Shown: positions 19,752 through 60,572 of the stretch, one piece after another
How the letters are laid out: each line of letters begins with the position of its first letter
Position numbering within the stretch: the first letter of the stretch is position 1
Source: Ostreococcus lucimarinus
Taxonomy: Eukaryota
Direction: 5' to 3' (one strand)
Assembly: GCA_000092065.1 (NCBI GenBank)
Contig: CP000594.1
Length of the DNA: 64,000 nt
Notes under the pieces: generated by a model
What the model was told of the DNA's origin: nothing
Databases searched by the model: none
The model's input: the letters and a program-made list of their open reading frames with translations, nothing else
Program-made: the position numbers and the translations under genes

Positions 19752-19753
19752 GC

Positions 19754-19786
<33 letters not shown>

Positions 19787-42996: not shown

Positions 42997-43265
42997 ACAA
43001 ATCATTTCAAACCATCCTATTATTGGCATTGTGGTAAGTACAATCGACCTCACGGAAAAGGCAGGCGGTACTGGCGTCGAAGAGTCGCGTGAGATTTCGC
43101 TTAAGATTTCGGCACCCTCGCTTAAGATCTCTTCAGAATCGAATCTCTGAACGCAAGGCGTGGATGTACATTAAACCATGAACGAGGCGGGACACGGTTC
43201 GATTTTTGGATTACAAGTGTAGGTCTACTTTTACGTTTCGTGGACTCCGCTCGAGTCGGCCGATG

Positions 43266-44075
43266 TCACCATGTCAGGTGTTTCGAGTGCACTAGAGACG
43301 TGACCGCCGATACACAGGACGTCGAGCTCGGCGTGCCTGATTTCACGACTCGGCGACCATGGTTTGAAACCGAAATGACCATCGGCTTCAGGCCCAGGCG
43401 CGGCCGCAATGCTACTTTAAACTTAATTTTTTTTTTTTGAAAAAAGAGTAGTAAGAGTAATAAAAATAAACTTTTTTTTTGTTTGAGTTGGGGCCCCCCC
43501 AACATGATAAAACCGCACATCGACGTTGATGTACCACATGTAAGATTTCTCCGGGAACCAATCGTGTGAGTGAAGTGGTCAAACCAAGCCACGCAACTCA
43601 TCGACCGTAAATTGATACTTGTCGAGACTGCGCTTCGAAGGCAGCGTGCCGCGCGCTCGAGCATTCTTGAGGCACGTCTTACGCAGTATCTTTTCGCGTG
43701 CTGCTTGTAATAATTGAGTTGTCTGTAGTTACCATCGCCGCCGTCCCGCTTCGGCGTATATTGAGCTCTGCTGTAGGCCGGACTCTCGTCCACGTTCTCG
43801 TGGCACGCCTGCTTCTGGCTGCGTCCAGTAGCTCGGGAGTTGAATAAGCCGTCACGCTTCTCTCTCATGTAGGCACTTTTACGTTGATGGAGCTCTCCAG
43901 CTGGAATGTCCTTTTCGAGAACTCTCACGTCCGCGTCGCCAAACGTGAAGATTGGATGCCGTGCGTATTTATGCGAGGCAAGGCGCGCTCTGATCGAACC
44001 TGTCGTCGATCCGATGTACGTTTTGTCACATTTCGCATTATCGCTATACATTTCGTACACGCATCCCGACGGCAT
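43266..44075 (-). CDS. GIY-YIG nuclease, copy C. The catalytic core is intact, but the C-terminal third is frameshifted by a 1-bp deletion, making it a possible pseudogene.
   Basis: The first ~120 aa match copies A and B. 'cgcagtatcttttcgcg' lacks one T relative to 'cgcagtattcttttcgcg' in A and B, so the frame runs on to 269 aa. Confidence 0.6.
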   Translation of the reverse strand: MPSGCVYEMYSDNAKCDKTYIGSTTGSIRARLASHKYARHPIFTFGDADVRVLEKDIPAGELHQRKSAYMREKRDGLFNSRATGRSQKQACHENVDESPAYSRAQYTPKRDGGDGNYRQLNYYKQHAKRYCVRRASRMLERAARCLRSAVSTSINLRSMSCVAWFDHFTHTIGSRRNLTCGTSTSMCGFIMLGGPQLKQKKSLFLLLLLLFFQKKKIKFKVALRPRLGLKPMVISVSNHGRRVVKSGTPSSTSCVSAVTSLVHSKHLTW

Positions 44076-47000
44076 TTGTCCTGGTTACCTATCTATCCCT
44101 AAGAAAATATTGTTGCCTCCTCCTGCGGTTTGCAGTCACATTCGAGAGACCATAGGTACTCGTGTCGCTGCGTGGGGTGCAAGGTCCGGGATGTAGATAT
44201 CGAACCGCCCGATTTCACACCTGGACGTTCGTGATCCGTCGAGACCTGACGAAATGACGAACTTGTTTTGTCGTCCCGAAATTCGTCAGCCCGTCGTTCG
44301 GTCACACTTTGTGTGTACCAATGATGAAAATGACGAAATGTTAAAATATTTTAATGTTTATTTTTATTTTAGATCTATGACAAGCAACAGTGTAGACCTT
44401 TATGAAAACAGTTCGTCATTCGTCATTTCGTCAGGATCCAAACCATGGTCTTTTTGGTGTCTTGTTGAGTCTTCATATTGCAAATGTACGAATTACAAAA
44501 TTAGTATGAGCACCAGACGACCGCCGGCGCGAGCTCCGTCTCCCCCGTGTACCCATTGTTCTTCAGCCACTCGAAGCACCCGTCGCGGTCAATTTCCCAA
44601 TAAACGCCCTTCTCGTCCCTACCTTGCCTCAGGTGGTCCTCTTGCATTGGGACCCTGTGGCCCTTTTCCTTCTTGAAGAAGTCCTTGAGCTTATTACCGA
44701 CCTTCGTCGCGCTATCTTGACCGCGCGCAGCCGCTGGCAACCACGTCTGGTATTCGATGAAGATGTCACTGTTGCGGATTTTATTTCCAACCCACTTCTC
44801 AGGGAATTCAACAGTGACGCAATGCTCAAACCATCGAGTGAACTTGGGCATGCATCCACGCTTCATTTCCGAATACGCATCGGTCGTAGGTCTGTCTTTG
44901 ACGTAGTCAAAGGTCGATAGGTCGAGCCCCATGAGATGGTCGTAGATTGCCCTCAAGTTCCTCGGATCCCTGATGTAAACCTCGCGGAATTCCTTCAAGA
45001 ATCCAGTCTGGTCGTTCAAGTGCGTGAGCAGTGGCTCCATGACGACGAACCGACGATCACTCATTTCCAGAAAGACCGGGTAGTCGTCGTTCGAGAAAAA
45101 TAGGAACCCAACCAGATTCATGATGACGTACAGCTGCACGTGCTTCGGGTTGATTGTGAAACTCGTGTCCGTGAGCATCGACTTCAGCAACTTTCTATAC
45201 ATTTTCATGATGCACTCATCTGCTTCGTTCAACGCGAGGCACTTTTTGCCTTCAATCATGTTCGCATGCGTCCCAAATATGTCCTTTTTCGGATCAGCCG
45301 TCTCGTGAAACGTCTTGCCCATGAGCGCGTGAAGCAGGTGCAGGAAAGTGCCCTTGCCGGTACCTTGGACTCCTCGAAACACGAGCGACGTGATCGGCTT
45401 CTCTTCGGGTCTCTGGAAGAGACACGCGAACCAATTCGAAGCGTACTCGAGCGCATTTTCTGAACCGCCACATAGCACCAGGAGGAGCTCGAGGAAAGGC
45501 TTCACGTCGCCCTCTTTGCCCAGTTCACTGGGGATGCCTTCGACCGGGTAGCCTCGCCACAGATTGTACGTCTTGTTGCTGCAGTTTTTCGGGACGACGT
45601 CGAGGTTATCGTACACCCGTTTATTGTCGTCGTCGAGCCACTTTTCGATGAACCCGTTTTTCTTGCCTTTCCTCAAGACACCGTTCTCATCGACAAAGGA
45701 GAGCTCTCGATAGCGCCTCACCAAAGCGGCCTCGCTGTACTTGGTAATGTCCCCGGTGGTTCCATAACAGCTATCGTCGCAGAAGAGGTCCTTGGTTAAG
45801 ATCTTTGCGACGTGCTTCTCGAACTCACGGCGGACCTCGATGTAGCCCGCAGACGTGCCCTCTTTGATTTCGTTCTGCTCCTTTTCGGTGATACCGGTCA
45901 CCAAACACCCAACCTCAAAGCGAAACTGTCTGGGCTTGCAGTTGCCATGGTTTTTCACGGTGAGCACGCCGAGACCGACCTCGGCGACGTAAAAGTGATT
46001 CCCACCGCCCCTTCCATTGCCTTCGTGGAAGCCCCCACAGCAAGGACATTGGCCCACAGTGGTGCCTCGCTGTGGGCGACATTGGTCGCATTCAAAATCA
46101 TACGATGTCGCTCCACTGAGCCAATGTATGCCCGTGAACCCCATTTCCTCGAGCAAAGGTGTCACAGATGCTTGCGTAAAGCTGCACTCCGTGTCCGCGC
46201 GTTCGACCTTGTGACCGACTTTGCCATCAAGGAAACTGTACAAATCGTTGGGCATCGGTGGTAAATTGTTGATGTCGCCTCGGAGTAGCTCGTAGCCCGG
46301 GGCATCGGCACCGACCACGTAGTTACCCGTCGTACGGATATCGACGAACCCTTCGATGCCCACCGTGCCTTTCCAATCGCCGAATCGTTCTTCGTCCCAT
46401 GCGAAGTACGTGTGGTACCCGCCTGATCGCGTTTTGACGATATACGCGCCTTCCCCGCCGACCTTGCGCGTCAACATTTCTTCCGTGAGTTCAAACTCGC
46501 ACTTGCCACCGTAACAATCCCAGTCGATGACGAGGACACGGTTCGGTCGCCCTGTCAGCACGCCGTACATTTCTCCTGGGATGACTTTCTGCGTATTCCG
46601 TTCATAGTTTGCTTCATCGAGGAACCCCCTGCCGCATGTTGGCTCCTTGTCCTGGTCGAGTGGGATCAGATGCATGCCGTTCGTAAATTCTCTGGCGTCC
46701 ATATATATCACATAAGAAAAGAATTCTTTAAGCCGTGTTTTTCCTGGTCACATCGGCGCGATGACTGATTTTCAAGTTTTTCAACAGCCTGGAAAAGCAC
46801 GCCAGCACGCCCCACTGGTCAACATTTTGCCACTTTTTCGACGAGATCGGGGTACTGCAAAGCACACGGCGAAGACGGGTGGCCGATGATCCATGTGTCC
46901 GTGTCTTCTCTGATGATTCGCTCCCGTTCATGGCTCAAGTGGTCGCGCGACCTCGCGCGTGAACGAAGGTGCCAAATTTTAGGTACCAGAGGTGCCCATT

Positions 47001-47116
47001 TCTTCGTGGTGAGATGGTCCCTCGTGTACCACGCCGCTCCCCTTTAAGTATGAAAAGTTATGTCCAATATATTGCGCGCGATGTCCGATGGTACACCATA
47101 CAATTTCATAGTTAAG
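43389..47116 (-). mobile_element. Copy C, the longest copy of the Prim-Pol/S3H + GIY-YIG element (about 3.73 kb), in minus orientation
   Basis: Termini are 'caggcccaggcgcggccgcaatgctactttaaactta...' (3' end, shared with copy A-right) and '...tcatagTTAAG' (5' end, shared with copy A-left). Internal order is 5' leader (~405 bp), primase-helicase, inverted-repeat spacer (~420 bp), GIY-YIG, 3' region (~320 bp). Confidence 0.75.
44501..46711 (-). CDS. Primase-polymerase/SF3 helicase, copy C (736 aa, intact)
   Basis: About 98% amino-acid identity to 16183..18393, with the same motifs. Confidence 0.85.
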   Translation of the reverse strand: MIYMDAREFTNGMHLIPLDQDKEPTCGRGFLDEANYERNTQKVIPGEMYGVLTGRPNRVLVIDWDCYGGKCEFELTEEMLTRKVGGEGAYIVKTRSGGYHTYFAWDEERFGDWKGTVGIEGFVDIRTTGNYVVGADAPGYELLRGDINNLPPMPNDLYSFLDGKVGHKVERADTECSFTQASVTPLLEEMGFTGIHWLSGATSYDFECDQCRPQRGTTVGQCPCCGGFHEGNGRGGGNHFYVAEVGLGVLTVKNHGNCKPRQFRFEVGCLVTGITEKEQNEIKEGTSAGYIEVRREFEKHVAKILTKDLFCDDSCYGTTGDITKYSEAALVRRYRELSFVDENGVLRKGKKNGFIEKWLDDDNKRVYDNLDVVPKNCSNKTYNLWRGYPVEGIPSELGKEGDVKPFLELLLVLCGGSENALEYASNWFACLFQRPEEKPITSLVFRGVQGTGKGTFLHLLHALMGKTFHETADPKKDIFGTHANMIEGKKCLALNEADECIMKMYRKLLKSMLTDTSFTINPKHVQLYVIMNLVGFLFFSNDDYPVFLEMSDRRFVVMEPLLTHLNDQTGFLKEFREVYIRDPRNLRAIYDHLMGLDLSTFDYVKDRPTTDAYSEMKRGCMPKFTRWFEHCVTVEFPEKWVGNKIRNSDIFIEYQTWLPAAARGQDSATKVGNKLKDFFKKEKGHRVPMQEDHLRQGRDEKGVYWEIDRDGCFEWLKNNGYTGETELAPAVVWCSY

Positions 47117-47181
47117 CCACACTTATTATATGACGACAGTGCCTACCTGTCGGTGGTCACGGAAAAGTTGCGTCTCAGACT

Positions 47182-47329
47182 GAGGATGGCGTGGCTCATG
47201 CGAGCTATATATACCTCATATATACATATATTAACACTTATAACACTATTAATGTACAATTGATTGGATGAGGTGCTCAGTCCACCCGCGCGAGGTCAAC
47301 AGCAGCAATTGTCTATGCACTTGGAGCAT
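47182..47329. repeat. Direct repeat DR-1 (~150 bp). It contains TA-rich 'gctatatatacctcatatatacatatattaacac' and the 3' coding end of the metallothionein-like gene.
   Basis: About 88% identical to 48858..49006. Confidence 0.8.
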
Positions 47330-47595
47330 GAGTTTTTGCACTCGCACGACGGACACGCGCAGGAGGTGCATCCGCACGACTTACACGTGGTCGCATCGGG
47401 ACACGCGCATTTGTCGGGGCCACAAGCATCACAGTCTTTCGGGCAGCACGCCTTGTCCGTGGACTCAGATTGTACCGTCCGTGCTGCAACCCGCGTCGGG
47501 CGCGAGACGACGCGCACGGCGCGTGGCGCGGTTCTTGACAATACGAAATCTGGTATCTGCGTACTCTTTACCTTAACGGCGGAGACTTTGAGCAT
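47296..47595 (-). CDS. Metallothionein-like Cys-rich protein
   Basis: ORF 47296..47643. The last ~52 aa are about 40% Cys: 'ACCPKDCDACGPDKCACPDATTCKSCGCTSCACPSCECKNSCSKCIDNCCC'. The Met at 47595 ('MLKVSAV') was taken as the start. The N-terminal ~45 aa are non-Cys, so the true start or exon structure is uncertain. Confidence 0.4.
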   Translation of the reverse strand: MLKVSAVKVKSTQIPDFVLSRTAPRAVRVVSRPTRVAARTVQSESTDKACCPKDCDACGPDKCACPDATTCKSCGCTSCACPSCECKNSCSKCIDNCCC

Positions 47596-47810
47596 TGTTG
47601 CGTCGAGGAATGGGCCAAGGGTAAGTAACCTCGTGGTCGGCACGTGCCCGCCTTATACAATCGACGCCTGAAAAGGGAGACTGGATGAGATCGAGGGCAC
47701 CCCGTGAGCGATCACTCTTCGACGCGGAACTCGTTCCTGTAGACGGCCAGCCACCACTCGAACGACCATACGGCAGCACAAAAGTACATCCACAACGTGT
47801 ACGTATCGAA

Positions 47811-48542
47811 ATGGCTGCCTATACTCAAGCGACGTTAACAGCACCTTCGTCGTCGACAGCCGTAAGCAATTCGAAGATAAGACTACGCCGTTCACGAACA
47901 ACTACGCGCACACATTCTGATCCGTCCGAAAGTACGCCGTTGAGTGAAGAGGCGCAAATCATAGTTGATGCATCGGAGGCGTACCCAGCGCAGACAAGCG
48001 TGGATTATTCGTTCGCAAGGAGTGGGTTCAGTAACCAGTGTGAACGAGCACTCAACGAGCAAATCAATGTCGAGTACAATATTTCGTACGTCTATCACGC
48101 CATGTGGGCGTACTTCAATCGTGACAATATCGCATTGGCTGGCTTTGCTGAACACTTTCGAAAAGAGTCACTGGAGGAGCGTGCGCATGCGGAACAACTC
48201 ATGGAGTACATGAACTTACGAGGCGGCAAAGTTGAGCTCCAACAATTGTTACCACCACAGAGTGAATACGATCGCCCGGAGAAAGGATGCGCACTATTAG
48301 CCCTGGAGCTGAGTTTGAGTCTCGAAAAGTTGAATAAAGAGAAACTGTGTGAACTGCATCGCGTCGCTGAGGATGCAGGAGACGCACATATGTGCGATTT
48401 TATTGAAGGCGAGTTATTAGACTCGCAGGTTCAAAGTGTGCGACAGGTTAGCGAGATGGTCGCCACGCTATTACGCATGGGACCGCCAGCAGATGGTATG
48501 GCAACTTGGCACTTCGATCAAACCTTACTTGAGGTGGCATAG
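47811..48542 (+). CDS. Ferritin with an N-terminal transit-peptide-like extension
   Basis: Classic ferritin signature: 'CERALNEQINVEYNISYVYHAMWAYFNRDNIALAGFAEHFRKESLEERAHAEQLMEYMNLRGG'. The ORF is open from 47685, the first ATG is at 47811 ('MAAYTQATLTAPSSS...'), and the Ser/Thr/Arg-rich leader is consistent with organellar targeting. Confidence 0.8.
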   Translation: MAAYTQATLTAPSSSTAVSNSKIRLRRSRTTTRTHSDPSESTPLSEEAQIIVDASEAYPAQTSVDYSFARSGFSNQCERALNEQINVEYNISYVYHAMWAYFNRDNIALAGFAEHFRKESLEERAHAEQLMEYMNLRGGKVELQQLLPPQSEYDRPEKGCALLALELSLSLEKLNKEKLCELHRVAEDAGDAHMCDFIEGELLDSQVQSVRQVSEMVATLLRMGPPADGMATWHFDQTLLEVA

Positions 48543-48640
48543 AAGCGGATTGTATCTCGTTGAGTCTAGTCACTTTCGTGTGCTCGTTTCGTTGGTTTCT
48601 GGTTACGAGTTCTTCCGTTGTTCTAAATATAACATATATT

Positions 48641-48862
48641 TAGACATATCCAAACCCTAGTACAATCACCCTAGGGTTTAGTCAAACTTTAATCAGTTTT
48701 ATCTAAATTAATTTTCATCTGTCGTCGCGAAAGATGAATCCTCGCGACAGAAAAACAGGTCTAAACCTTAAACCCTAACTTCGGTTGGGCTATATAGCAC
48801 TTTGGGCGGTTAAAACCGCGCCCAAAGCCCCATATATTGTCCCATGTTTCGGCCAAATCCCG
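48641..48862. promoter_or_regulatory. Partial copy of the upstream-module repeat, with telo-box-like 'aaaccctag', 'ccctagggtttag', 'taaaccttaaaccctaac', TATA 'gggctatatagc' and hairpin 'ctttgggcggttaaaaccgcgcccaaag'
   Basis: Similar to 36130..36240. It sits just 5' of direct repeat DR-2. Confidence 0.45.
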
Positions 48863-49006
48863 CGCTTTGAGGATGGCGTGGCTCATGCGACCTATATATG
48901 CCTCATGCGTACATATATTAACATTTATAAGGGTATTAATACATAATTGATTGGATGGGGTGCTCAGTCCACCCGCGCGAGGTCAACAGCAGCAATTGTC
49001 TTTGCA
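48858..49006. repeat. Direct repeat DR-2, partner of 47182..47329
   Basis: Aligned by eye. The minus strand here again ends an ORF with '...CKDNCCC*'. Confidence 0.8.
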
Positions 49007-49177
49007 CTGATCAGTCCGTGTTTGACAAGGAGACGTTCGCGCGAAAGTGAGTGGAGTGAGATAAGCAAAATTGGGATTTTTTGTTATTTAAAATGACTTC
49101 TTTTATATCGACGATCTTGTCTCGATTATACGCTGACCTTCGCGGGTGCTTGTTGTACTTGTACGTACACGACCCAG

Positions 49178-50968
49178 CTAGTCCGCTTTGTTGTGGATCT
49201 TGTCGCACTTGTCGAAAGCGTATGCGGCGACGGTACTGCTGACCCCGGACGGATCAAAGACTGATGCGAGCTCAGCTGCCGCGCGGACCGCATCCGTCTC
49301 TGATTCCGCGCTGTTTACGTTTTTCATCGCAGAAAAATAGCCGGTAGTCTTACCAACCGCCTCCATACCTTGGTCGAGACTATTTGCCGCCTTTTTCAAA
49401 GCAGCAAGCTTACTCCCAGCTTCGGCAACGTTAGCACCGGCACGGGCTGCAGCCTTGGCCCCAGTTGTCGCAGCTCCACTACTCCCAGCGGTCGCTACAA
49501 ATGCAATAATTTCCAACGGCCCGAGAATCATATTAGTTACCGCGGAGCCACAAGCGGCGTCATCTTTTGCGGCACCCATACCGCAGTTCACCCACTTCTC
49601 ACCGCTCACTGTTGGAGGTTGGCCCCAGCAAACTGGACCGACGCCATTGTAACCACTGCGACATTTCTTGTAACACAAACCAGCGTCGTACTCCAAACCA
49701 GGAGGACACGTGGCTGCTTCAAAGCCGTGTGAGCAGTATATCTTTTTCGGGCAACTCGGCGCAATTCCATGTGCGTACCCATTGCCGGTGCAAGAAACGC
49801 CGCACAAGTTGCAGCCAATCCGGTTCGGATGACTGCTAGGGCAAGGAGGATAACAAAGTCCAAGACAGTCTTGTCTTCCTTTTCTGCTACAGTGCCTTCC
49901 GCCGCATACGAGTCTTGTCCTCGCGTTCCCCAAAAGGCGTCGACCGTTGGCCGCATGTTCGCCAAGGGTGGATGATGATGATGACCAGTACTCCCAGCCA
50001 CACTGGACGGTACCAACACCACGACCGCGGTTACCTCTGTTACAAAAAAGACCATGATCATTCCAGCCCGAGCCGCAGCGTTGATGGCAGTCGTAGCCAA
50101 ATCTGGCATAATTACCGAGGTGGTGGCATTTGGTATAGCACAAGACGCCCCCTGCAATTGTTTCTTTATTGGAAGGGCAATGAGACGGGACTTTGCCCAC
50201 ATCGCGGCCGTATGAGTTTTTCCAACAGAACTCGACGGTGATGGCGTTCGCAACGACAGCACCCTTCGCATTCGACGCAGCACTTACACCATCACTAAAG
50301 CTGTCCCATTTTCCGCCCAACCGAGCAGATAGCATCGCTTCGTGTACCTCCAATAATGCCTTGTCTTGCTCAATCTCTTCGTGCAGTTTTTGCATATATG
50401 CTGAGACGTTCACTGGCGCCGGTTGCGTCGCACCCTCATCCACCGTGGCCTGCCAAACGAAGTTCGAATGCTCATCATTAGCAAGATTTTCATCGTCACG
50501 CCTGCGCAAATGTTGTTTAAGCATCTTAATTCGTAATAGCGTCGCGTTTCTTCCGCCCTTGGTCGATATGAACATGCCATCCTCGGCTCCTGCCGCATTC
50601 AACCTGGGTTCGGCACCTGGGATCACCTCCCCAGGACCCGCACTCCCGAGCAACGCGTGGACTTCTGGACCGAATTCCATCTCGTCAACGAATTCGTCCA
50701 AGTGATCAGGGAGATCAAATTCACCCTGGATCGAGTGCGCGGACAATCCCAGCAACGCAGACGGCCCTTTCGGTGCACTTTCACGGTACGAGAACGAAAT
50801 CACACCCACAGCAAACAGCACAGCGGCCTGCTTCACGGTACACCAGCCGCATGCCGCCGCTTTTCGCCCTTCACGTTCCTCCGTTTGTTGCCAACTGCGA
50901 GCGCCGTCGTTCGACGAGCCGGGCGCGCCGTATGTCTCACTAATCGCCGCCGCTTCGTACGTCGGCAT
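49178..50968 (-). CDS. Hypothetical Cys-rich type-II membrane protein
   Basis: 596-aa ORF. It has the N-terminal TM 'AAVLFAVGVISFSY', repeated 'C..C...G...G..C' modules ('CYTKCHHLGNYARFGYDC', 'CYKKCRSGYNGVGPVC') and an Ala/Gly-rich C-terminus. Confidence 0.4.
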   Translation of the reverse strand: MPTYEAAAISETYGAPGSSNDGARSWQQTEEREGRKAAACGWCTVKQAAVLFAVGVISFSYRESAPKGPSALLGLSAHSIQGEFDLPDHLDEFVDEMEFGPEVHALLGSAGPGEVIPGAEPRLNAAGAEDGMFISTKGGRNATLLRIKMLKQHLRRRDDENLANDEHSNFVWQATVDEGATQPAPVNVSAYMQKLHEEIEQDKALLEVHEAMLSARLGGKWDSFSDGVSAASNAKGAVVANAITVEFCWKNSYGRDVGKVPSHCPSNKETIAGGVLCYTKCHHLGNYARFGYDCHQRCGSGWNDHGLFCNRGNRGRGVGTVQCGWEYWSSSSSTLGEHAANGRRLLGNARTRLVCGGRHCSRKGRQDCLGLCYPPCPSSHPNRIGCNLCGVSCTGNGYAHGIAPSCPKKIYCSHGFEAATCPPGLEYDAGLCYKKCRSGYNGVGPVCWGQPPTVSGEKWVNCGMGAAKDDAACGSAVTNMILGPLEIIAFVATAGSSGAATTGAKAAARAGANVAEAGSKLAALKKAANSLDQGMEAVGKTTGYFSAMKNVNSAESETDAVRAAAELASVFDPSGVSSTVAAYAFDKCDKIHNKAD

Positions 50969-51222
50969 AGTTTGTTCCTTTAGTCGAGCGTCGGATTGTG
51001 GCGAAACGGCGGGTGCCCTCGGTCGGTCGGACGGACTTTCGCGGTCGGTCGGACGAGGGGCCCGTTGGCGCCCCGCGGGTGTGTGTACCAGCCCTTAGGG
51101 TTTAATGTATATTAATGTATTTATGGGTATCATCCCGCGCAATTCGAGGGGTAGATTACTGTACTGTACAGTAACCCTCTAGTAGAACACGCTAGGTGAA
51201 ATCAAGCGCCGCGACCGTACGC

Positions 51223-51304
51223 TTATTCTCGTCGGCGTTTGCCGCTGCCGCTGCTACTGCTACTGCTACTGCTACTGCTCGAGGACGAGCTCGAAGACGA
51301 ACTT

Positions 51305-51342
<38 letters not shown>

Positions 51343-51912
51343 CCACGTCGATTCATCCTCGTCTTCATCCTCTCTTAATTCATCCGCAAACTCGCGCGAA
51401 CTGCGCACCAAAGCCTCTTCAAACTGCCGCTGCGCCTCGCTCCGCGCGCCTTCGAATCGAAACACCAACCGCGGCGTGTGTTTCATCGTCAACATCTTCG
51501 ACAGCATCGTCCGTATTTTCTGCGCGTTCCGCTCCAACGCGTTCCCCGCGATGTGTTCCTCCCCCATCCGCGTCGTTCCGTACAGCACGTGCACCGTCTT
51601 AAAATCTTTCGACACGCGCGCGTCCATCACGTTCGCCCCCGTGCCGTCAAACTTGTGCGCCAGCTCCTCGTGCACCACGCGCTTCAGCGCTTTGCGCACG
51701 CGCGCGCTCTGTCGAATCTGCGCCTTGTCCTGATCGATCGTCGTCCGCTCCACCTCGATCGGGCGTCGCGCCGCGCGCGGGCGCCGCGTCGTCGTCCCCG
51801 CGAAGTGCGCGCCGCTCGCCGCGCTCGCCGCGCCGCGCTCGCGCGCGCCCGCGCGCGCCGACGACGCCGTCGCGGTCAGGCGCATCAGCGCTCGCGTCGC
51901 GCGTCGACGCAT
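51223..51912 (-). CDS. rbfA: Ribosome-binding factor A (RbfA)-like protein with an Arg/Ala-rich presequence and an acidic poly-Asp/poly-Ser tail
   Basis: RbfA-like core: 'RQSARVRKALKRVVHEELAHKFDGTGANVMDARVSKDFKTVHVLYGT'. The first Met in the Arg-rich leader is at 51912..51910. The rest of the 399-aa ORF upstream is a high-GC open frame. The (GTC)n and (GCTACT)n microsatellites at 51246–51352 encode the D/S tail. Confidence 0.45.
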
Positions 51913-52008
51913 CGTCGCGTCCCGCGTCGCGTCGCGTCGCGTCCCGAGCGCCGCGATGTCCCGAGCGCCAATCGCCGCCGCGCCGCTCGGCGCCGCGCGC
52001 GGGACGCG

Positions 52009-52887
52009 ATGCCACCGCCGACGCGCGCGACGCCCGCGCGCGGCGCGCCCGACGTCGCCCGCGAGTGGGCGGCCGCGGGCGTCGGGTGCGCGCTCGCGGA
52101 CACGGTGTTCAACCCGCTCGAGGTGCTCAAGGTTCGCGCGCAACAACGACCGGACGCGGTCGCGCTGCGAGCGCTCGCGCGCGAGGCGATCGCGCGCGAT
52201 GGATTCGCGCGGGGCTTGCTCGCGCCGGGACTCGCGGCGACGTGGATGCGAGGGCTGTCGTACACGGGGTTTCGAATCGGGCTGTACCCGACGACGCGGG
52301 ACGAGGCGCTGCGCGTCTTCGGCGGCGACGGCGTCGGCGCGCGAGTGCTCGCGGGGGCGGTCACGGGCGGGATAGGCGCGGTGGTGTTTAATCCGATCGA
52401 CGTCGTGCGAGTGCGGATGCAATCGAGCGAGTGCGGGTATCGAAGCACGGTGGGGGCGTTCGCGGAGGTGGCGAGAGAGGAAGGCGTGAGACGCGGATTG
52501 TGGCGAGGCGCGGGGGCGTGCGTGGCGCGCGCGATGACGCTGTCGGGGTCGCAGTTAGCGACGTATGATGTCAGTAAACGATGGTTGTTGAAAAATGGGA
52601 CGTTTAGCGAGGACGCGCCGCCGTTGCACTTTACGTGCTCGTTCGCGAGCGGCGTCGTCGCGCAAACCGTCACGCAACCCGTGGACACGCTCAAGACGCT
52701 CGTCATGTCCAACGTCGGCGACAAGCGAGGCGCGATGACCATCGCGCGCGATGTCATCGCCAATCACGGCGTTCGCGGGTTATACAGGGGCTACTTTGCC
52801 GCAGCCGCGCGACAAGGTCCAGTCATGACGCTCCAAATGCCCATAGTAGAGGCGCTCAGAAGATTTTTGGGCCTCGAATACTTTTGA
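52009..52887 (+). CDS. Mitochondrial carrier family (SLC25) protein
   Basis: There are three tandem ~100-aa repeats, each with a carrier signature: 'PLEVLKVRAQ', 'PIDVVRVRMQ' and 'PVDTLKTLVM'. The Met at 52009 precedes the first helix. The longer ORF from 51478 is a GC artefact. Confidence 0.75.
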   Translation: MPPPTRATPARGAPDVAREWAAAGVGCALADTVFNPLEVLKVRAQQRPDAVALRALAREAIARDGFARGLLAPGLAATWMRGLSYTGFRIGLYPTTRDEALRVFGGDGVGARVLAGAVTGGIGAVVFNPIDVVRVRMQSSECGYRSTVGAFAEVAREEGVRRGLWRGAGACVARAMTLSGSQLATYDVSKRWLLKNGTFSEDAPPLHFTCSFASGVVAQTVTQPVDTLKTLVMSNVGDKRGAMTIARDVIANHGVRGLYRGYFAAAARQGPVMTLQMPIVEALRRFLGLEYF

Positions 52888-52926
52888 ACTTTCGAGCGCG
52901 CGAGATTCGACGCTCGCAGCGATTCG

Positions 52927-53808
52927 TTGTATTTATCATCTATTCTTTCAGCGCGCTCGAAGCCTTCCCTCGCGCGTCGCGGTGCCAGAGCGCGGCCAAC
53001 CTCGTCCGTACCTCACACCTCGACGCGCCGAAGCATGCGCGCCGCGACGTCGCCGCGGGTTCGCGCCGCCCTACGGCCGTCGACGCGTCTTTCGCGCGTG
53101 CGCACATCGCGCGCGACTCACACGCGCGCGGAGCCGTCGAAAAGCGAGGAAAAGGCGTCGAAAGACGCGCAAGATGAAGATGACGCGTTCGCGATTGATT
53201 TATCCGTCGACGTCGAAAAGGAGTTCAAACGCGGCCTGGAGTTCGGGAACACTGAAGTGCGCGCGCGCTTCCGCCCAGAGGCGATCTCTGAAGTCGACCG
53301 CGGGTTGCCGATCGCGGATTCGCTCGTCGCGGTGTCCGCGCAGGTGCTCGTGGCGGTGGCGGCGCTCAGCGCGGGAAACATTCCGTCGTGGTTGGCGCCG
53401 ATTGGACCGAGGTGGCGTGGATTAGCGTATTTGTTGCCCGCAATCGTGCATGGGGCGAAATTAGCGAGCGTGTGGGTCGTGGGGGGGCTGGCGGGGAAGG
53501 CGTACGAGCGGAAGGCGTTCGATGGGACGTTTCGGGAGGCTATGCGACGAACGGTGAGCGGCGGATGTTTCGCCGTGGGGCTGCTGATATTTATCACGCA
53601 GATTGAAGTGGCGCATAAGTTTCACGAGTTAGGGTTGGGAGATCCCGTGCTTGAATCGTCGCCCGAGGGTGATTTAGTGATAAATGGAGCACTGTCTGAG
53701 CTTTTGGTTGACATCTTCAGCGAAGCCGGCGCGTTGCTGACGTGGCGAGCGATTAGGTGGAACACGTCGCCGACTGATCCGGCATCATTGCTGGAGGAGG
53801 AAGAGTAG
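52927..53808 (+). CDS. Hypothetical organelle-targeted membrane protein
   Basis: A Ser/Arg/Thr-rich presequence is followed by hydrophobic segments ('LVAVSAQVLVAVAALSAG', 'LAYLLPAIVHGAKLASVWVVGGLAG', 'GGCFAVGLLIFI'). No named domain was recognised. Confidence 0.3.
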   Translation: MYLSSILSARSKPSLARRGARARPTSSVPHTSTRRSMRAATSPRVRAALRPSTRLSRVRTSRATHTRAEPSKSEEKASKDAQDEDDAFAIDLSVDVEKEFKRGLEFGNTEVRARFRPEAISEVDRGLPIADSLVAVSAQVLVAVAALSAGNIPSWLAPIGPRWRGLAYLLPAIVHGAKLASVWVVGGLAGKAYERKAFDGTFREAMRRTVSGGCFAVGLLIFITQIEVAHKFHELGLGDPVLESSPEGDLVINGALSELLVDIFSEAGALLTWRAIRWNTSPTDPASLLEEEE

Positions 53809-53887
53809 CGATTAATTGTTGTGATTCGATTCTTGTATTATATTATTTTCAACTTTCAATTCGTGTGTGTGTATTTGAGCGCACGCG

Positions 53888-56425
53888 TCATTCTTCGCCC
53901 CACGCTTGGTCGGCACTGCCCGCGTTCTCTTGGTCTTGTTGCGCGGCGCCTCGCAAGTGAGGCGGAACCCATTTCACCTGGGACGAAGTCGGGCGATCTT
54001 GTTCGTTGGAGATATCGTTTGACGTGGACTTTGTGAACGCACTGTCCATCATGATCTTTCCGGGAGGCTTCGCCGGTGCGGGCGCCTTCTCGGGTTCGGG
54101 TTCGGGTTCGGGCGCACGCCCACCTCCCCTCTTCTTTTCGGCTTTTCGTTTCTCCGACAACAAGTTGCCGCCCGAAAACTCTTCGCGCAACTTGGCTTTG
54201 TAATCGTCGAACGATCCATTGAAAACTTGTACGCTTCCTGGGACCGGAGGATTGGATTTCATGTCGCCCTTCGTGACAATCCAAATTTCATCGACGACGA
54301 GCGAAATGAGACGCTCGTCGTGCGAGACTAACACGACGCCGCCTTCGAAGTTGTTGAGCGCCATGGCAAGTGACTCGATCGTTTCCAAGTCAAGATGGTT
54401 AGTAGGTTCATCCAAAAGGAGAATGTGAGGTTGCTTCCACGCGAGTTCGGCAAATGCTAGACGTGACTTTTGCCCGCCGGACAAAACTTTAATCGGCTTT
54501 GTCGCGAGCTCGCCAGACAGGCCGAATCGACCCAAGTACGCTCGCGCCGTCTCTATAGGCATTTCGCTGTCTAGTCTCTTCATGTGCGCTACGCAATCTT
54601 CCTCCAAGTTCATCGTCTCCAAGTGATGTTGAGAGAAACGCGCTAGCCGAAGCTTGGTGTGACGATTAATCCAACCTTTGGTGGGCAAAATGTCACCCTC
54701 GAGAAGCTTCAAAAACGTCGATTTACCAGCCCCGTTCGGTCCGACGATTGCGACTCGGCTATCCATGTCTAACCCAAAGTCTAAGTTTTGGTACAAGGTT
54801 TGATAGCCTTCGTAACCGAACGCGACGTTCATCACGGAGATGCACGGTGGCGGCAACGGCGACGCGGATGGGAAATTGATGCGTAGATACGGATCATCGT
54901 AATCCACGTCCACCCGCTCGCTCTGTAATTTTTCGAGCATCTTCATGCGACATTGTGCCTGACGCACCATTTTCTTGTGACCTTGCCCAAATCGCTGAAT
55001 GAATTGCTTCAGAGATGACTCTCGCAAACTTTGGTTTCGCTGCATCGCCTCCTCGTTGGCTCGGTGCTCAGCGCGCACCTTGAGGAAGGTATCGTAGGAT
55101 CCGCCGTAGTAGCGCAACTTTTTGTGGTGCAAGAAAATTGTTGCCGTCGTGCAATCGTTCAAAAAGCCGCGATCGTGCGACACGATGAGGACCGTCTTTT
55201 CCCACTTTCGTAAAAACTCTTCGAGCCACGTCAAAGCGTGCACGTCCAAGTGATTCGTCGGTTCGTCCAGCAACAACAAATCCGGCGTCATGAACAGCGC
55301 CGCCGCGAGCGCGATGCGCATGCGCCAACCACCGGAAAATTCTTTCGTCGCCTTCATTTGCTCCTCGGGATCGAAACCGAGACCGCCCAGAATTTGTCCC
55401 GCGCGCGCCGTCGCCGTGTCGGCGTCTATTTCGTCCAGGCGCTCGTACACCTCGTTCAAGTCGATGCCATCGATTTGATCGAGTTCTTCGTCCAACATTC
55501 GCTTCTCTAGATTGAGCAAGTACAGACGCTCGGTGTCGGTCTCCACGACGGTCTGCAACGCGGACCGCTCGTCCGGTGACGCCTCTTGCTCGACGTGAAT
55601 GATGTGCAAAAATTCTGGCAACTTGATGACGCGTTCGGAAATCGCTCGCAACAGCGTCGACTTGCCGCATCCATTTCGACCGACCAAACCGTACTTCGTC
55701 CCGAACACTAACTTCAAAACCCCTTCCTGAATCAACTCATCGCGTCCGCCGTAGAGCTGAATACCGCTGATGTGAATGTCCATGTTACAGTTGGCGCGAC
55801 GATTCGCATCCGGGCCGCTTCGAATGTGAAAGCCCAAATCCTCCGAGCTCAACCGCCCCCCGTTCGCCGCGATTCGCGCCTCCCGCTCCTTCCTCGCCCG
55901 CTCCTCCTTTTTCTTCCTCGCTTGTTCCTCTTGCTCTTGCTTCACGCTCAACATTTTCCTCGTCTTCGCCTTGCCTCGCACGACTTTTTCCTCCGGCAGC
56001 GTCTCGCCGTTCGCCACCCTCTCCCCGTTTTCCCTCGCTCGCTTCACCCTCGCCAGCATCACCCTGTACTGCTGACAGCACTCCATCGCGTCTCGTCCAT
56101 CGACGTGCGTCGCGATCGCCTCCCACCTCTCCTCATCGCTCGTCGCCGCGTCCCTCGCCGCCGACGTCCCTCGCGCTCGCAAGCCCTCCACGAGCGCCAG
56201 GTCCTCCGCCTCGTCCCACGCCCCACCGCGTCGCGCGTCCTCGCGCGTCCGTCCCTCGTCCCGCGTCTCGCCCGCGTCGCCCGCGTCCTCGCGCGCCTCC
56301 GCGCGCGTCGCCTTGGCCGCGTCGCGCGCCGCGCGCTTCGCCGCGAGCGCCGCGCGCTTCGCCTCCTTCTCTCGATTCTTCTGTTCGAGCGCTTCGAGTC
56401 GCTCGCGCTCCTTCCGCGTGCTCAT
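53888..56425 (-). CDS. ABC-F family ATPase (GCN20/ABCF1/EF3-like) with two ABC cassettes and no TM domains
   Basis: Two Walker A motifs ('GRNGCGKSTLL', 'GPNGAGKSTFL') and two signature/Walker B blocks ('LSGGQKSRLAFA...LLLDEPTNHLD'). The N-terminus is Lys/Glu/Ala-rich, typical of ABCF. Confidence 0.85.
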   Translation of the reverse strand: MSTRKERERLEALEQKNREKEAKRAALAAKRAARDAAKATRAEAREDAGDAGETRDEGRTREDARRGGAWDEAEDLALVEGLRARGTSAARDAATSDEERWEAIATHVDGRDAMECCQQYRVMLARVKRARENGERVANGETLPEEKVVRGKAKTRKMLSVKQEQEEQARKKKEERARKEREARIAANGGRLSSEDLGFHIRSGPDANRRANCNMDIHISGIQLYGGRDELIQEGVLKLVFGTKYGLVGRNGCGKSTLLRAISERVIKLPEFLHIIHVEQEASPDERSALQTVVETDTERLYLLNLEKRMLDEELDQIDGIDLNEVYERLDEIDADTATARAGQILGGLGFDPEEQMKATKEFSGGWRMRIALAAALFMTPDLLLLDEPTNHLDVHALTWLEEFLRKWEKTVLIVSHDRGFLNDCTTATIFLHHKKLRYYGGSYDTFLKVRAEHRANEEAMQRNQSLRESSLKQFIQRFGQGHKKMVRQAQCRMKMLEKLQSERVDVDYDDPYLRINFPSASPLPPPCISVMNVAFGYEGYQTLYQNLDFGLDMDSRVAIVGPNGAGKSTFLKLLEGDILPTKGWINRHTKLRLARFSQHHLETMNLEEDCVAHMKRLDSEMPIETARAYLGRFGLSGELATKPIKVLSGGQKSRLAFAELAWKQPHILLLDEPTNHLDLETIESLAMALNNFEGGVVLVSHDERLISLVVDEIWIVTKGDMKSNPPVPGSVQVFNGSFDDYKAKLREEFSGGNLLSEKRKAEKKRGGGRAPEPEPEPEKAPAPAKPPGKIMMDSAFTKSTSNDISNEQDRPTSSQVKWVPPHLRGAAQQDQENAGSADQAWGEE

Positions 56426-56563
56426 GCCGTCGTCGAGCGCCGCGCGTTTCGCGTAACGTCGCGTCGCGCGTCCTCGCTCGACGTCGCGATCGCGCGCCGC
56501 GCCGCGCCACGCGCCGACGAGTGCGCGCGACGACGACGTCTCGAGCGATTCGCAATCCGCACC

Positions 56564-57031: not shown

Positions 57032-57185
57032 CGCGCGAACGCGGAGACGGTGACGCGCGCGCGACGATCAGGCATTCGTCATTCGTTGTAACGCACTCGT
57101 AACGAACTCGACATCGCGCGACGCGCGGGCGACGCGCGGGCGACGGCGACGGTGGACGACGACGCGGATCGACGCGCGACGGTCG

Positions 57186-60143: not shown

Positions 60144-60205
60144 ACGTAGCCGCTTGTAGCAAGCTCGAGCGCACGAGCCAAACCACACACATCGCCGCTC
60201 GCGCG

Positions 60206-60535: not shown

Positions 60536-60572
<37 letters not shown>

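What the first reader, a model, noticed from the sequence alone, without database searches (positions are those of the whole stretch)
50900..51300. Abrupt compositional boundary from about 50% to above 70% GC, separating a repeat- and giant-gene-rich domain from compact housekeeping genes
Left of about 51 kb the DNA is comparatively AT-rich and carries mobile elements, dispersed cassettes and giant surface-protein genes. Right of it nearly every codon third position is G or C. ORFs are open in all six frames, a high-GC artefact. Genes are separated by only about 40–100 bp, for example RbfA-like versus mitochondrial carrier starts about 96 bp apart. Such sharp isochore-like boundaries, with transposons confined to the low-GC side, resemble the low-GC 'outlier' chromosome regions described in Mamiellophyceae picoalgae. 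They could equally mark an introgressed or horizontally acquired island.
Basis: partly seen in the sequence, partly recalled or inferred. Interest (0 to 1): 0.6.

Follow-up and report, generated by a model that had tools for sequence, protein, structure and literature searches.

The report
Edge of a mobile low-GC gene island
The GC jump at about 51.16 kb is real but smaller and patchier than described: it is the right-hand end of a large low-GC island on an ordinary chromosome of the picoalga Ostreococcus lucimarinus, built of roughly 15-kb gene cassettes, which some wild relatives of the same species lack.

Summary
The window is Ostreococcus lucimarinus CCE9901 chromosome 14, a standard chromosome, not outlier chromosome 2 or 18.

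**Composition.** GC rises from 51.6% to 60.4%, and GC3 from 58% to 71%. The best single change-point is at about 50.6 kb. The right side is not above 70% overall. Only two patches reach 72-84% (51.7-52.4 kb and 56.0-57.5 kb). Both lie on gene 5' ends and divergent promoters. Gene bodies fall back to 52-58%.

**Structure.** The structural boundary is exact. At 51,149-51,161 sits the inverted-repeat tip GGGTAGATTACTG of the last of at least four abutting cassettes, each joined through a TA. Host DNA resumes at 51,183.

**Comparative evidence.**
- O. tauri, a more distant relative and empty-site contigs of the same species have poly(A) polymerase next to RbfA, with no island.
- The empty site shows a single TA. 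That TA flanks both outer ends of the island.
- Ocean metagenomes show other cassettes joined to the same flank. I found 36 distinct tip junctions.

**Verdict.** This is an acquired, population-variable island made of outlier-like DNA. The joining mechanism is unresolved: transposon-like cut-and-paste or site-specific recombination.

The parts
1..5816 (.). Cassette 0, partial; it continues left of the window. Contents: ORF490 (27-1499 +), PrimPol fragment (2065-3345 +), secreted Cys-rich ORF284 (3416-4270 -), GIY-YIG 165 aa (4584-5081 -, ABO99766). The right terminal arm is at 5745-5816 and has lost its last ~10 nt.
   Evidence: ORFs and Pfam. Arm found with an nhmmer profile of metagenome tips. 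In L056/L113 the same arm carries the full tip. Accessions.
5819..20019 (.). Cassette 1, 14.2 kb, 52.0% GC. Contents: giant DUF285/PARCEL protein (5875-12597 +), coiled-coil ORF630 (12507-14399 +), GIY-YIG (15262-15759 -), PrimPol-DUF5906 helicase 736 aa (16183-18393 -), ORF357 (18696-19769 -). The left tip CAGTAATCTA starts at 5819. The right arm covers ~19760-20019 and ends in GGGTAGATTACTG at 20007-20019.
20020..20047 (.). Junction between cassettes 1 and 2: TA, then a 24-bp collapsed mini-element CAGTAATCTACCCGTATCTTACTG (20022-20045), then TA. Positions 20007-20034 form a perfect 28-bp palindrome.
   Evidence: Sequence. Motif count 4 against 0.01 expected. Metagenome contigs L006, L007, L012 and L018 join cassette 3 to cassette 2 without this 24-mer.
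20048..36236 (.). Cassette 2, 16.2 kb, 51.2% GC. It holds a single 5156-aa ORF (20438-35908 -) with TSP1, PAN and DUF285 repeats. The ends are related (30 of 39 positions).
   Evidence: It is found inverted next to cassette 0 in L056/L113.
36239..51161 (.). Cassette 3, 14.9 kb, 51.6% GC. Contents: giant tectonin/discoidin protein (36505-42996 +), GIY-YIG-containing ORF (43266-44075 -), PrimPol-DUF5906 helicase (44501-46711 -), ferritin (47685-48542 +) between 141-bp direct repeats, and Cys-rich 596-aa protein (49178-50968 -). The terminal inverted repeats match at 48 of 67 positions. The right arm covers 50999-51161.
   Evidence: The inverted-repeat alignment scores 20 against a shuffle maximum of 11.
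51149..51184 (+). The structural boundary. In order: last tip GGGTAGATTACTG (51149-51161), TA, CTG, TA, CAG, TA, ACCCTCTAG (51174-51182), then TA (51183-51184). That final TA matches the single TA of the empty site.
   Evidence: Sequence. Homology with empty-site contigs L130/L131 begins at 51183. The left outer junction shows the same TA.
51185..64000 (.). Standard core genome, 60.4% GC. Genes: RbfA (51223-51885 -), mitochondrial carrier (52009-52887 +), 257-aa protein (53035-53808 +), ABCF ATPase (53888-56425 -), UBA-like 155 aa (56564-57031 +), HECT ligase (57186-60143 +), MIF4G/MA3 (60206-62617 +), MRP-S28 (62765-63772 +).
   Evidence: Gene calls on identical metagenome contigs. Pfam. Synteny with L127-L132.
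51700..52400 (.). GC spike of up to 84% over the divergent RbfA / carrier promoter and both 5' coding ends. A second spike at 56000-57500 reaches about 74% over the ABCF / UBA-like / HECT starts.

Best explanation
The boundary is the right-hand insertion junction of a large island. At least 51 kb of it lies in the window, and the total is probably 70-90 kb. The island sits in the 3'-3' spacer between a small gene next to poly(A) polymerase and RbfA, on O. lucimarinus chromosome 14.

**What the island is made of.** It is a chain of roughly 14-16-kb cassettes.
- Each cassette is bounded by inverted terminal arms whose tips read 5'-CAGTAATCTACCC.
- Adjacent tips meet across a single TA (…GGGTAGATTACTG TA CAGTAATCTACCC…).
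- The arms appear to carry promoter and leader sequence that reads inward into the first gene (inferred).
- The cargo is giant adhesin-like surface proteins, Cys-rich secreted proteins, ferritin, and three copies of a GIY-YIG plus PrimPol-helicase module.

**Why the composition changes.**
- The two sides have different histories. The island belongs to a mobile, strain-variable pool of about 52% GC with its own dinucleotide signature.
- As established for Mamiellales outlier regions, such DNA is expected to escape the GC-biased gene conversion that holds the core genome near 60% (inferred here).
- The core side shows the usual steep 5'-to-3' GC decline within genes.

**How cassettes move (inferred).** Cassettes are inserted, excised, inverted and swapped at the TA-centred palindromic core.
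- The sequence details favour a Tc1/mariner-like cut-and-paste reaction supplied in trans. These details are the CAGT tips, the TA flanks, strings of the form TA-C(A/T)G-TA, and a 24-bp collapsed element.
- A site-specific recombinase is the main alternative.
For: **Insertion**
- O. tauri (L126), a relative at 73% amino-acid identity (L127-129) and conspecific contigs L130/L131 have RbfA next to a small gene, poly(A) polymerase, RRS1, PDZ and RRP12, with no island.
- L130 has about 62% GC on both sides of the site, so there is no GC step there.
- The empty site reads …TTATACATA|TA|GAACACGC. The window's right junction reads …CCCTCTAG|TA|GAACACGC.
- The left junction, on ten contigs that carry the CCE9901-identical poly(A) polymerase, reads …TTATACA|TA|CTTTGGGAGG…GATTACTG TA, followed by giant DUF285 ORFs.
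- The same GC step is seen at the left edge.

**Not an artefact**
- L005 spans window 53068-46105 at 99.8% identity.

**Cassette structure**
- The tip motif occurs 4 times, against 0.01 expected.
- The profile search finds arms at 5.8, 20.0, 36.3 and 51.1 kb and none to the right.
- The inverted repeats of cassette 3 match at 48 of 67 positions.

**Mobility in nature**
- L001-L004 and L107 join the same right flank to the end of cassette 1.
- L006, L007, L012 and L018 join the end of cassette 3 to the start of cassette 2.
- L056 and L113 have cassette 2 inverted.
- There are 36 distinct tip junctions: 23 tip-TA-tip, 4 with a C(A/T)G-TA string, and 9 other.

**Composition**

**Standard chromosome**
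- See and PMC2996958.
Against: - No transposase or recombinase was found in the window, or in 20 ORFs from tip-bearing metagenome contigs.
- The outermost pieces of the island are not canonical tips facing the host TA. The left one is an 85-bp arm pointing inward. The right one is a 9-bp stub, ACCCTCTAG.
- The TA duplication is only 2 bp, so it could be chance.
- The metagenome scans required the tip followed by TA (plus C in the first scan). The TA at those junctions is therefore partly imposed by the search.
- Cassettes 1 and 2 have weak inverted repeats.
- The island's total size and left part rest on accession order and on metagenome contigs, not on the chromosome sequence itself.
- The role of gene conversion in the GC difference is inferred from the literature (PMC8557840), not measured here.
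Confidence: 0.75

Rival explanations
1. The cassettes are exchanged by a site-specific recombinase, not a transposase. The array would then work like an integron or shufflon. The core would be read either as 11-bp arms around a TGTACA spacer, or as 13-bp half-sites around a central TA.
For: - There is a perfect 28-bp palindrome at 20007-20034, and related cores sit at every cassette boundary.
- Most junctions in nature are cassette-to-cassette: 23 of 36.
- Deletion-type, circle- or tandem-type, and inversion-type joins are all seen.
- Related elements next to such tips (L037, L117, L144) encode a conserved 476-499-aa protein. Its invariant residues R320, K353, R420, H446 and the nearly invariant Y454 are spaced as in tyrosine recombinases.
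- The best hhalign segment places K353 on Cre K201.
Against: - The recombinase assignment has no statistical support. There is no Pfam hit and no significant match to solved structures (nothing for the single sequence; one chance-level pilin hit at E=0.69 for the profile).
- The structure model has pLDDT 47.5, and hhalign probability is 0.6%.
- That gene is absent from the window.
- The TA-CTG-TA and TA-CAG-TA strings, truncated tips and the 24-bp collapsed element look like repair scars, not conservative recombination.
- The observed deletion-type and circle-type joins are not reciprocal products of the window's arrangement.
Confidence: 0.3
2. The left side is part of a described Mamiellophyceae outlier region: the big outlier chromosome (mating-type region) or the small outlier chromosome.
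For: - The GC drop of about 9 points is at the low end of the published 9-17% range (PMC8557840).
- The region is repeat-rich and variable between individuals.
- The O. tauri ferritin orthologue lies on chromosome 2 (PMC4855317).
Against: - The flanks are syntenic with O. tauri chromosome 15, and O. lucimarinus chromosome 14 is its partner.
- The outlier chromosomes of O. lucimarinus are 2 and 18.
- The window contains no housekeeping gametolog-type genes and no glycosyltransferases.
- Conspecific haplotypes simply lack the region.
Confidence: 0.04
3. The island is an integrated virus or a set of integrated virus-like elements, either giant-virus or polinton-like.
For: - There are three copies of a PrimPol plus superfamily-3 helicase gene with a GIY-YIG nuclease gene.
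- Homologues at 33% identity lie on 4-21-kb contigs made of small unannotated genes.
- Relatives at 81% identity sit in larger gene clusters in L117 and L144.
Against: - No capsid, packaging ATPase or other viral hallmark was detected.
- A scan of 2.9 million viral contigs gave one relative at 26% identity.
- The tip motif gave only two unrelated hits there.
- Most of the island is giant cellular-type surface-protein genes.
Confidence: 0.12
4. There was no acquisition. The low GC arose in place, because a hemizygous, non-recombining stretch lost GC-biased gene conversion. The 'empty' haplotypes would then be deletions.
For: - The published mutational equilibrium in O. tauri is 36% GC against 60% observed, so non-recombining DNA should decay (PMC8557840).
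- The flank next to the junction is strongly diverged between haplotypes, which suggests an old polymorphism.
Against: - O. tauri and a second, more distant relative both have the uninterrupted arrangement. The empty state is therefore ancestral.
- The island ends at element tips and a TA.
- Cassettes at 99-100% identity occur in other arrangements.
- The signature differs beyond plain GC content.
Confidence: 0.08
5. The junction is a chimeric assembly.
For: Many metagenome contigs end at or near the boundary.
Against: - L005 crosses the boundary at 99.8% identity.
- The contig ends are explained by alternative neighbours and repeats.
- The breakpoint falls exactly on a conserved tip.
Confidence: 0.02

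Closest known systems
Low-GC outlier regions of Mamiellales (BOC1 on the big outlier chromosome; the small outlier chromosome, SOC)
   Same: - The lineage is the same.
- GC is about 9 points lower, with a sharp edge.
- The region is rich in repeats and mobile elements and carries giant genes.
- Structure varies between individuals.
- Gene content is unrelated to housekeeping.
   Different: - It lies inside a standard chromosome (chromosome 14).
- It is tens of kb long, not hundreds.
- It is absent from sister haplotypes and from O. tauri.
- It lacks mating-type core genes and the glycosyltransferase content typical of the SOC.
- It is organised as TA-joined cassettes bounded by inverted repeats. 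I did not find this organisation described for BOC or SOC in the papers searched.
Tc1/mariner-superfamily DNA transposons and their non-autonomous, cargo-carrying derivatives
   Same: - The inverted-repeat tips begin with CAGT.
- A TA sits at every junction and at both outer ends of the island.
- Strings of the form TA-C(A/T)G-TA match the canonical excision footprint (from my own knowledge of Tc1 and Sleeping Beauty).
- There is a collapsed 24-bp mini-element.
   Different: - The units are 14-16 kb and carry giant host-type genes.
- No DD(E/D) transposase was found.
- The elements sit almost only end-to-end in arrays rather than dispersed.
- The outermost ends of the island are not canonical tips.
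Bacterial integron cassette arrays, shufflons, and eukaryotic tyrosine-recombinase elements (Cryptons)
   Same: - A palindromic core lies at each cassette boundary.
- Cassettes occur in different orders and orientations in different individuals.
- A possible tyrosine-recombinase-like gene is present in related elements.
   Different: - The organism is a eukaryote.
- The cassettes are about 15 kb and carry their own terminal promoters.
- No recombinase is confirmed.
- Repair-scar-like microheterogeneity is present at the junctions.
Presence/absence of giant genes on standard chromosomes of O. tauri (Blanc-Mathieu et al. 2017, PMC5498103)
   Same: Giant genes on standard chromosomes vary between strains of one Ostreococcus species.
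   Different: - Those cases are single polyketide synthase gene deletions.
- No cassette or inverted-repeat structure, and no compositional island, was described for them.

Membership tests
Mamiellales big outlier chromosome low-GC region (candidate mating-type locus) | Lies on the big outlier chromosome (chromosome 2 in O. lucimarinus) | tested here: not met
   The flank orthologues are on O. tauri CAID01000015.2. O. lucimarinus chromosome 14 pairs with O. tauri chromosome 15 (PMC2996958).
Mamiellales big outlier chromosome low-GC region (candidate mating-type locus) | Sharp 9-17% drop in GC relative to the flanks | tested here: inconclusive
   GC is 51.6% against 60.4%, a difference of 8.8 points, at the lower edge of the published range. 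The transition is smeared over about 600 bp.
Mamiellales big outlier chromosome low-GC region (candidate mating-type locus) | Contains conserved housekeeping 'core MT' genes present in all species | tested here: not met
   Pfam on all large ORFs finds only surface-protein domains, PrimPol/DUF5906 and ferritin. O. tauri and conspecific haplotypes lack the whole region.
Mamiellales small outlier chromosome | A separate small chromosome, hypervariable between strains | tested here: not met
   The region is embedded between syntenic core genes on a 708,927-bp record. The hypervariability itself is met.
Tc1/mariner-superfamily transposon | TA target-site duplication | tested here: inconclusive
   The empty site has one TA, and the island has a TA at both outer junctions. 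All internal junctions in the window are TA. A 2-bp match is weak, and the metagenome scans imposed the TA.
Tc1/mariner-superfamily transposon | Terminal inverted repeats with conserved tips | tested here: met
   Cassette 3 matches at 48 of 67 positions, scoring 20 against a shuffle maximum of 11. The profile built from 25 unique tip sequences drawn from metagenome contigs finds four arms in the window.
Tc1/mariner-superfamily transposon | DD(E/D) transposase, in the element or in an autonomous partner with the same ends | tested here: not met
   No such domain was found in window ORFs or in 20 ORFs from tip-bearing contigs. The rest of the genome could not be searched.
Tc1/mariner-superfamily transposon | Excision footprints TA-C(A/T)G-TA | tested here: met
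   Window 51162-51173 reads TA CTG TA CAG TA. The same form occurs in L021/L040/L113 and L125, and by eye in L087 (which one search counted as a degenerate tip), plus L001-4/L107. That these strings are footprints is an interpretation.
Site-specific recombinase cassette system (integron-, shufflon- or Crypton-like) | Recombinase gene with the catalytic residues | tested here: inconclusive
   None is in the window. The 476-aa protein in L037/L117/L144 shows an R..K..R..H..Y pattern. It has no Pfam hit and no significant match to solved structures (one chance-level hit at E=0.69 for the profile), a model with pLDDT 47.5, and hhalign probability 0.6%.
Site-specific recombinase cassette system (integron-, shufflon- or Crypton-like) | Conserved palindromic core at each cassette boundary, with cassettes reordered between individuals | tested here: met
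Endogenous polinton-like virus or giant-virus insertion | Capsid and packaging genes; relatives in viral sequence collections | tested here: not met
   There are no hallmark domains. The best viral-contig relative of the primase-helicase is at 26% identity. The fold-level search for capsids was not done.

The most novel reading that the evidence does not exclude
A picoalga would keep, on an ordinary chromosome, an array of about 15-kb cassettes that encode giant cell-surface proteins. Cassettes would be inserted, excised, inverted and swapped at a TA-centred 28-bp palindromic core. This would be a eukaryotic counterpart of integron or shufflon cassette arrays. The array would persist in ocean populations as an old presence/absence and order polymorphism, with suppressed recombination beside it. 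The plausible benefit would be to vary the cell surface against viruses or grazers. It would also show that 'outlier-type' DNA in Mamiellales is a mobile compartment, not a property of two particular chromosomes.
Probability: 0.3. Interest if true: 0.8.

Novelty: new variant of a known kind. Interest (0 to 1): 0.6.

Why it matters
**Why it matters for Mamiellales genome biology**
- Low-GC, hypervariable compartments in Mamiellales are currently treated as a feature of two outlier chromosomes, tied to mating type and virus resistance.
- This locus shows the same kind of DNA as a discrete island with exact ends inside a standard chromosome. It also has an empty allele in the same species.
- That gives a small, tractable system to ask how such DNA arrives, why it stays AT-richer, and what moves it.

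**What it offers experimentally**
- The exact junction sequences allow haplotype frequencies to be read directly from Tara-type metagenomes.
- The ferritin gene, central to iron physiology, rides inside one cassette.
- The giant adhesin-like cargo suggests a link to virus or grazer interactions.

**If the mechanism proves to be cassette exchange**
- It would be an unusual mechanism for a eukaryote.

Tried and rejected
- **tRNA and Rfam scans of the window:** nothing found, so there is no tRNA integration target.
- **Tip motif in viral contigs:** two unrelated chance hits.
- **Primase-helicase in viral contigs:** one relative at 26% identity.
- **Pfam on small island ORFs and on 20 ORFs from tip-bearing metagenome contigs:** no transposase or integrase.
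- **Search of solved structures with ORF490 and with the 476-aa protein (single sequence and profile):** nothing significant.
- **AlphaFold2 model of the 476-aa protein:** pLDDT 47.5, too poor for a fold search, so none was run.
- **hhalign against XerD and Cre:** not significant.
- **The O. lucimarinus genome paper (Palenik 2007):** not held in the library. Whether it mentions this island is unknown.
- **The O. lucimarinus chromosome record:** The island's left part was therefore inferred from accession order and metagenome contigs.
- **Search of tip-bearing loci for the left host flank:** none found.
- **Single reciprocal crossover:** I considered and rejected this as the origin of the alternative joins, because the deletion-type and circle-type junctions are not reciprocal relative to the window.
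Full report
**Observation.** A profile in 1-kb windows shows 46-55% GC from 1 to 51 kb and 52-74% from 51 to 64 kb. A maximum-likelihood single change-point falls at 50,580, with 51.6% GC to the left and 60.4% to the right. The left side is homogeneous: the standard deviation of 500-bp windows is 3.3 points. The right side is patchy: the standard deviation is 7.5 points and the range is 52-77%, and 62% of its windows fall within the left-hand range. Only 51.8-52.4 kb (72-84%) and 56.0-57.5 kb (71-75%) exceed 70%. Pooled GC3 is 57.6% on the left and 71.1% on the right. Every right-hand gene falls from a GC3 of about 0.8-0.95 in its first 100 codons to about 0.6 further on. Divergent spacers are 75-81% GC, while the convergent spacer at 53809-53887 is 34%. 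So the boundary is real. However, 'above 70% GC' describes gene 5' ends, not a domain.

**Identity of the DNA.** The 596-aa ORF at 49178-50968 is identical to XP_001421481.1 of Ostreococcus lucimarinus CCE9901, on a 708,927-bp record. Further ORFs carry CCE9901 accessions in an order that matches the window:
- Plus strand: ABO99584 (ORF490), 99591 (ferritin), 99592 (carrier), 99593 and 99595.
- Minus strand: 99766 and 99767 (GIY-YIG), 99774 (596-aa ORF) and 99776 (ABCF).

The O. tauri orthologue of the mitochondrial carrier lies on CAID01000015.2, which is 511,330 bp. Published chromosome pairing puts O. lucimarinus chromosome 14 opposite O. tauri chromosome 15. It also lists two DUF285/PARCEL ORFs on the former and none on the latter (PMC2996958). 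The window is therefore on a standard chromosome, not on outlier chromosome 2 or 18.

**What lies on each side.**

The right side holds compact core genes: RbfA, a mitochondrial carrier, an ABCF ATPase, a HECT ligase, a MIF4G/MA3 protein and MRP-S28.

The left side holds the following:
- Three giant ORFs of 2240, 5156 and 2163 aa with DUF285, TSP1, PAN, tectonin and discoidin domains.
- Cys-rich secreted-type proteins.
- Ferritin.
- Three copies, 94-98% identical, of a 3.4-kb module. It encodes a 165-aa GIY-YIG protein and a 736-aa PrimPol-DUF5906 helicase.

There are no tRNA genes and no Rfam families.

**The exact boundary.** Metagenome contigs that carry the right-hand genes at 99.6-99.7% identity (L001-L004) run from 64000 down to 51162. 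They then continue at 20027 going down, at 99.7-100% identity. Other contigs (L006, L007, L012, L018) join 51168 to 20040. L005 is colinear with the window from 53068 to 46105.

The break-points carry a shared sequence. GGGTAGATTACTGTAC occurs at 20007, at 20019 on the minus strand, and at 51149. A two-mismatch copy occurs at 36236. That is four matches against 0.01 expected. Positions 20007-20034 form a perfect 28-bp palindrome.

Reading the four sites together shows inverted terminal arms whose tips meet across a TA. An nhmmer profile built from metagenome tips finds arms at 5745-5818, 19938-20019, 36321-36239 and 51086-51161, and none further right.

The low-GC DNA is thus a chain of cassettes:
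- Cassette 0: up to 5816.
- Cassette 1: 5819-20019.
- Cassette 2: 20048-36236.
- Cassette 3: 36239-51161.

The three complete cassettes are 14.2, 16.2 and 14.9 kb, with 52.0, 51.2 and 51.6% GC. The ends of cassette 3 match at 48 of 67 positions, scoring 20 against a shuffle maximum of 11. The long arms end in a shared box, AAACTCGATTTTTGCTAGGGTTTAG, directly upstream of giant1, giant3 and ORF357. This suggests terminal promoters that read inward (inference).

**Insertion relative to relatives.** Three sets of contigs have RbfA followed by a small gene, poly(A) polymerase, RRS1, PDZ and RRP12:
- O. tauri (L126).
- A relative at 73% amino-acid identity (L127-L129).
- Contigs L130 and L131.

Homology of L130 and L131 with the window starts at 51183. 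The junctions compare as follows:
- The empty site reads …GTTGTTATACATA TA GAACACGC.
- The window reads …GATTACTG TA CTG TA CAG TA ACCCTCTAG TA GAACACGC.
- Ten contigs carrying the CCE9901-identical poly(A) polymerase show the left edge: …GTTGTTATACA TA CTTTGGGAGG…GCGCTTTGATTACTG TA…, followed by giant DUF285 ORFs.

The same GC change appears at that left edge. At the empty site GC is about 62% on both sides.

Accession order places poly(A) polymerase (ABO99758) about seven minus-strand genes left of the window start. It places RRS1 and the Apple-domain gene (ABO99580, 99581) about two plus-strand genes left of it. The island is therefore probably 70-90 kb in total (inference).

**Population structure.** In the first 800 bp right of the junction, the island-bearing contigs (window, L001-L005) are identical to each other. 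They differ by 5.7-6.4% from the empty-site contigs (L130-L132). The difference is 3.8-4.2% at 52-54.5 kb and 2.2% at 54.5-56 kb. Beyond 57.3 kb, L131 is window-like (0.1-0.4%). L130 becomes window-like beyond 59 kb. L132 stays 4-5% diverged. On the left flank, L131 is 99.7-99.8% identical to island-bearing contigs.

These are mosaic haplotypes of interbreeding lineages, with divergence concentrated next to the structural difference. In the protein collection, the island-linked carrier allele is on 147 contigs, while the sequence that stands for the empty-site type is on 3.

**Mobility.** A scan of JGI metagenomes for the 16-nt tip gave 101 loci. Among the contigs in hand there are 36 distinct junctions in which the tip has the characteristic arm:
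- 23 are tip-TA-tip.
- 4 have a C(A/T)G-TA string before unrelated or stub sequence.
- 9 are other, including a second tip type, CCCTAGTCTACTGACGGAAT.

Cassette 2 occurs inverted next to cassette 0 in L056 and L113. Cassette 0 has other neighbours in L119-L125.

Several details resemble Tc1/mariner ends, TA targets and excision scars. They are the TA-CTG-TA-CAG-TA string at 51162-51173, the 24-bp collapsed element at 20022-20045, and truncated tips (L010 and the arm at 5.8 kb). The resemblance rests on my own knowledge of that family.

No transposase was found. A site-specific recombinase is the main alternative. Related elements in L037, L117 and L144 carry, next to such tips and next to the primase-helicase, a conserved 476-499-aa protein. 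Its invariant residues R320, K353, R420, H446 and the nearly invariant Y454 are spaced as in tyrosine recombinases. This could not be confirmed:
- Pfam gives nothing.
- The search of solved structures gives nothing significant (one chance-level hit at E=0.69 for the profile).
- The structure model has pLDDT 47.5.
- hhalign probability is 0.6%.

**Why the composition differs.** The island's dinucleotide signature differs from the right flank by a delta* of 137-189. Island chunks differ from each other by 24-62. The right flank differs from O. tauri by only 86, and from the other host flank by 51. The island is therefore compositionally foreign beyond its GC content.

Published work gives a mutational equilibrium of 36% GC for O. 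tauri, against 60% observed. It attributes the difference to GC-biased gene conversion, and attributes low GC in the mating-type region to suppressed recombination (PMC8557840). DNA that circulates as hemizygous, variable cassettes would escape that drive. This step is inferred, not measured.

The O. tauri ferritin gene is ostta02g03400, on the big outlier chromosome (PMC4855317). The ferritin here rides in cassette 3. This links the island to outlier-type DNA.

**Comparison and novelty.** The closest known things are the Mamiellales outlier regions and strain-variable giant genes on standard O. tauri chromosomes (PMC5498103). This locus differs in four ways:
- It lies within a standard chromosome.
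- It has exact ends.
- An empty allele exists in the same species.
- It has a TA-joined cassette architecture.

In the papers searched I found no description of that architecture. The original genome paper could not be read.

I rate this a new variant of a known kind, with interest 0.6. The compositional boundary itself is explained. The cassette mechanism is the open and interesting part.

Noticed in passing
window 51223-63772 (right-hand genes): GC3 declines steeply from 5' to 3' within every core gene, from about 0.8-0.95 to about 0.6. Divergent promoters are 75-81% GC, and a convergent spacer is 34% GC. This resembles the gradients described in grasses. I found no description of it for Ostreococcus in the library.
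   Followed up: partly
window 56200-57200: The GC-rich stretch over the ABCF N-terminus, the UBA-like 155-aa gene and the spacer is hypervariable between haplotypes (80-83% identity, with indels). The neighbouring sequence is 97-100% identical.
   Followed up: partly
window 47181-49008: The ferritin gene (47685-48542) lies inside cassette 3, between 141-bp direct repeats at 47181-47321 and 48868-49008 (90% identical). Its O. tauri orthologue, ostta02g03400, is on chromosome 2, the big outlier chromosome.
   Followed up: partly
window 15148-18558; 43410-47116; 1667-3095 plus 4356-5474: A 3.4-kb module (GIY-YIG 165 aa plus PrimPol-DUF5906 helicase 736 aa) occurs in three copies at 94-98% identity. 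One copy is split and partly inverted. Its protein clusters are very abundant in marine metagenomes (601 and 898 members).
   Followed up: partly
L037:4701-6128; L117:7222-8721; L144:10001-11431: A conserved 476-499-aa protein lies next to the primase-helicase and next to element tips in related contigs. It has a tyrosine-recombinase-like residue pattern (R320, K353, R420, H446, Y454) that no statistical test confirmed. A homologue at 26% identity exists in Bathycoccus prasinos.
   Followed up: partly
CCE9901 record outside the window; L133-L142, L135: Poly(A) polymerase and RRS1 each have two identical copies on the 708,927-bp record (ABO99724/99758 and ABO99545/99580). One copy of poly(A) polymerase sits in a different context (ZIP transporter, LHC) that is also next to a giant ORF. 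This suggests a second island edge or a segmental duplication about 35 genes away. The record is about 200 kb longer than O. tauri chromosome 15.
   Followed up: no
window 19836-19863; 5845-5871; 36494-36520; 19760-19790: The long terminal arm holds two telomere-like CCCTAAA units. It also holds a conserved box, AAACTCGATTTTTGCTAGGGTTTAG (telo-box-like), just upstream of giant1, giant3 and ORF357.
   Followed up: no
window 6727-10372; 24551-25773: The giant ORFs contain in-frame tandem repeats. There are 75-bp (25-codon) DUF285 units in several blocks, six 114-bp units at 24954-25773 (four of them 98-100% identical), and three 162-bp units at 24551-25036.
   Followed up: no
L119:10552-15079: In one metagenome contig, the right part of cassette 0 is followed by cobW, GTP cyclohydrolase II and an FMN-dependent dehydrogenase, in DNA of about 52% GC. 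This is either another insertion context or metabolic genes carried as cargo.
   Followed up: no
L144:5700-5760; L037:1748-1790; L047: A second tip type, CCCTAGTCTACTGACGGAAT, also meets its partner across a TA (GACTAGGG TA CCCTAGTC). It lies directly beside core genes in a 590-kb contig.
   Followed up: partly
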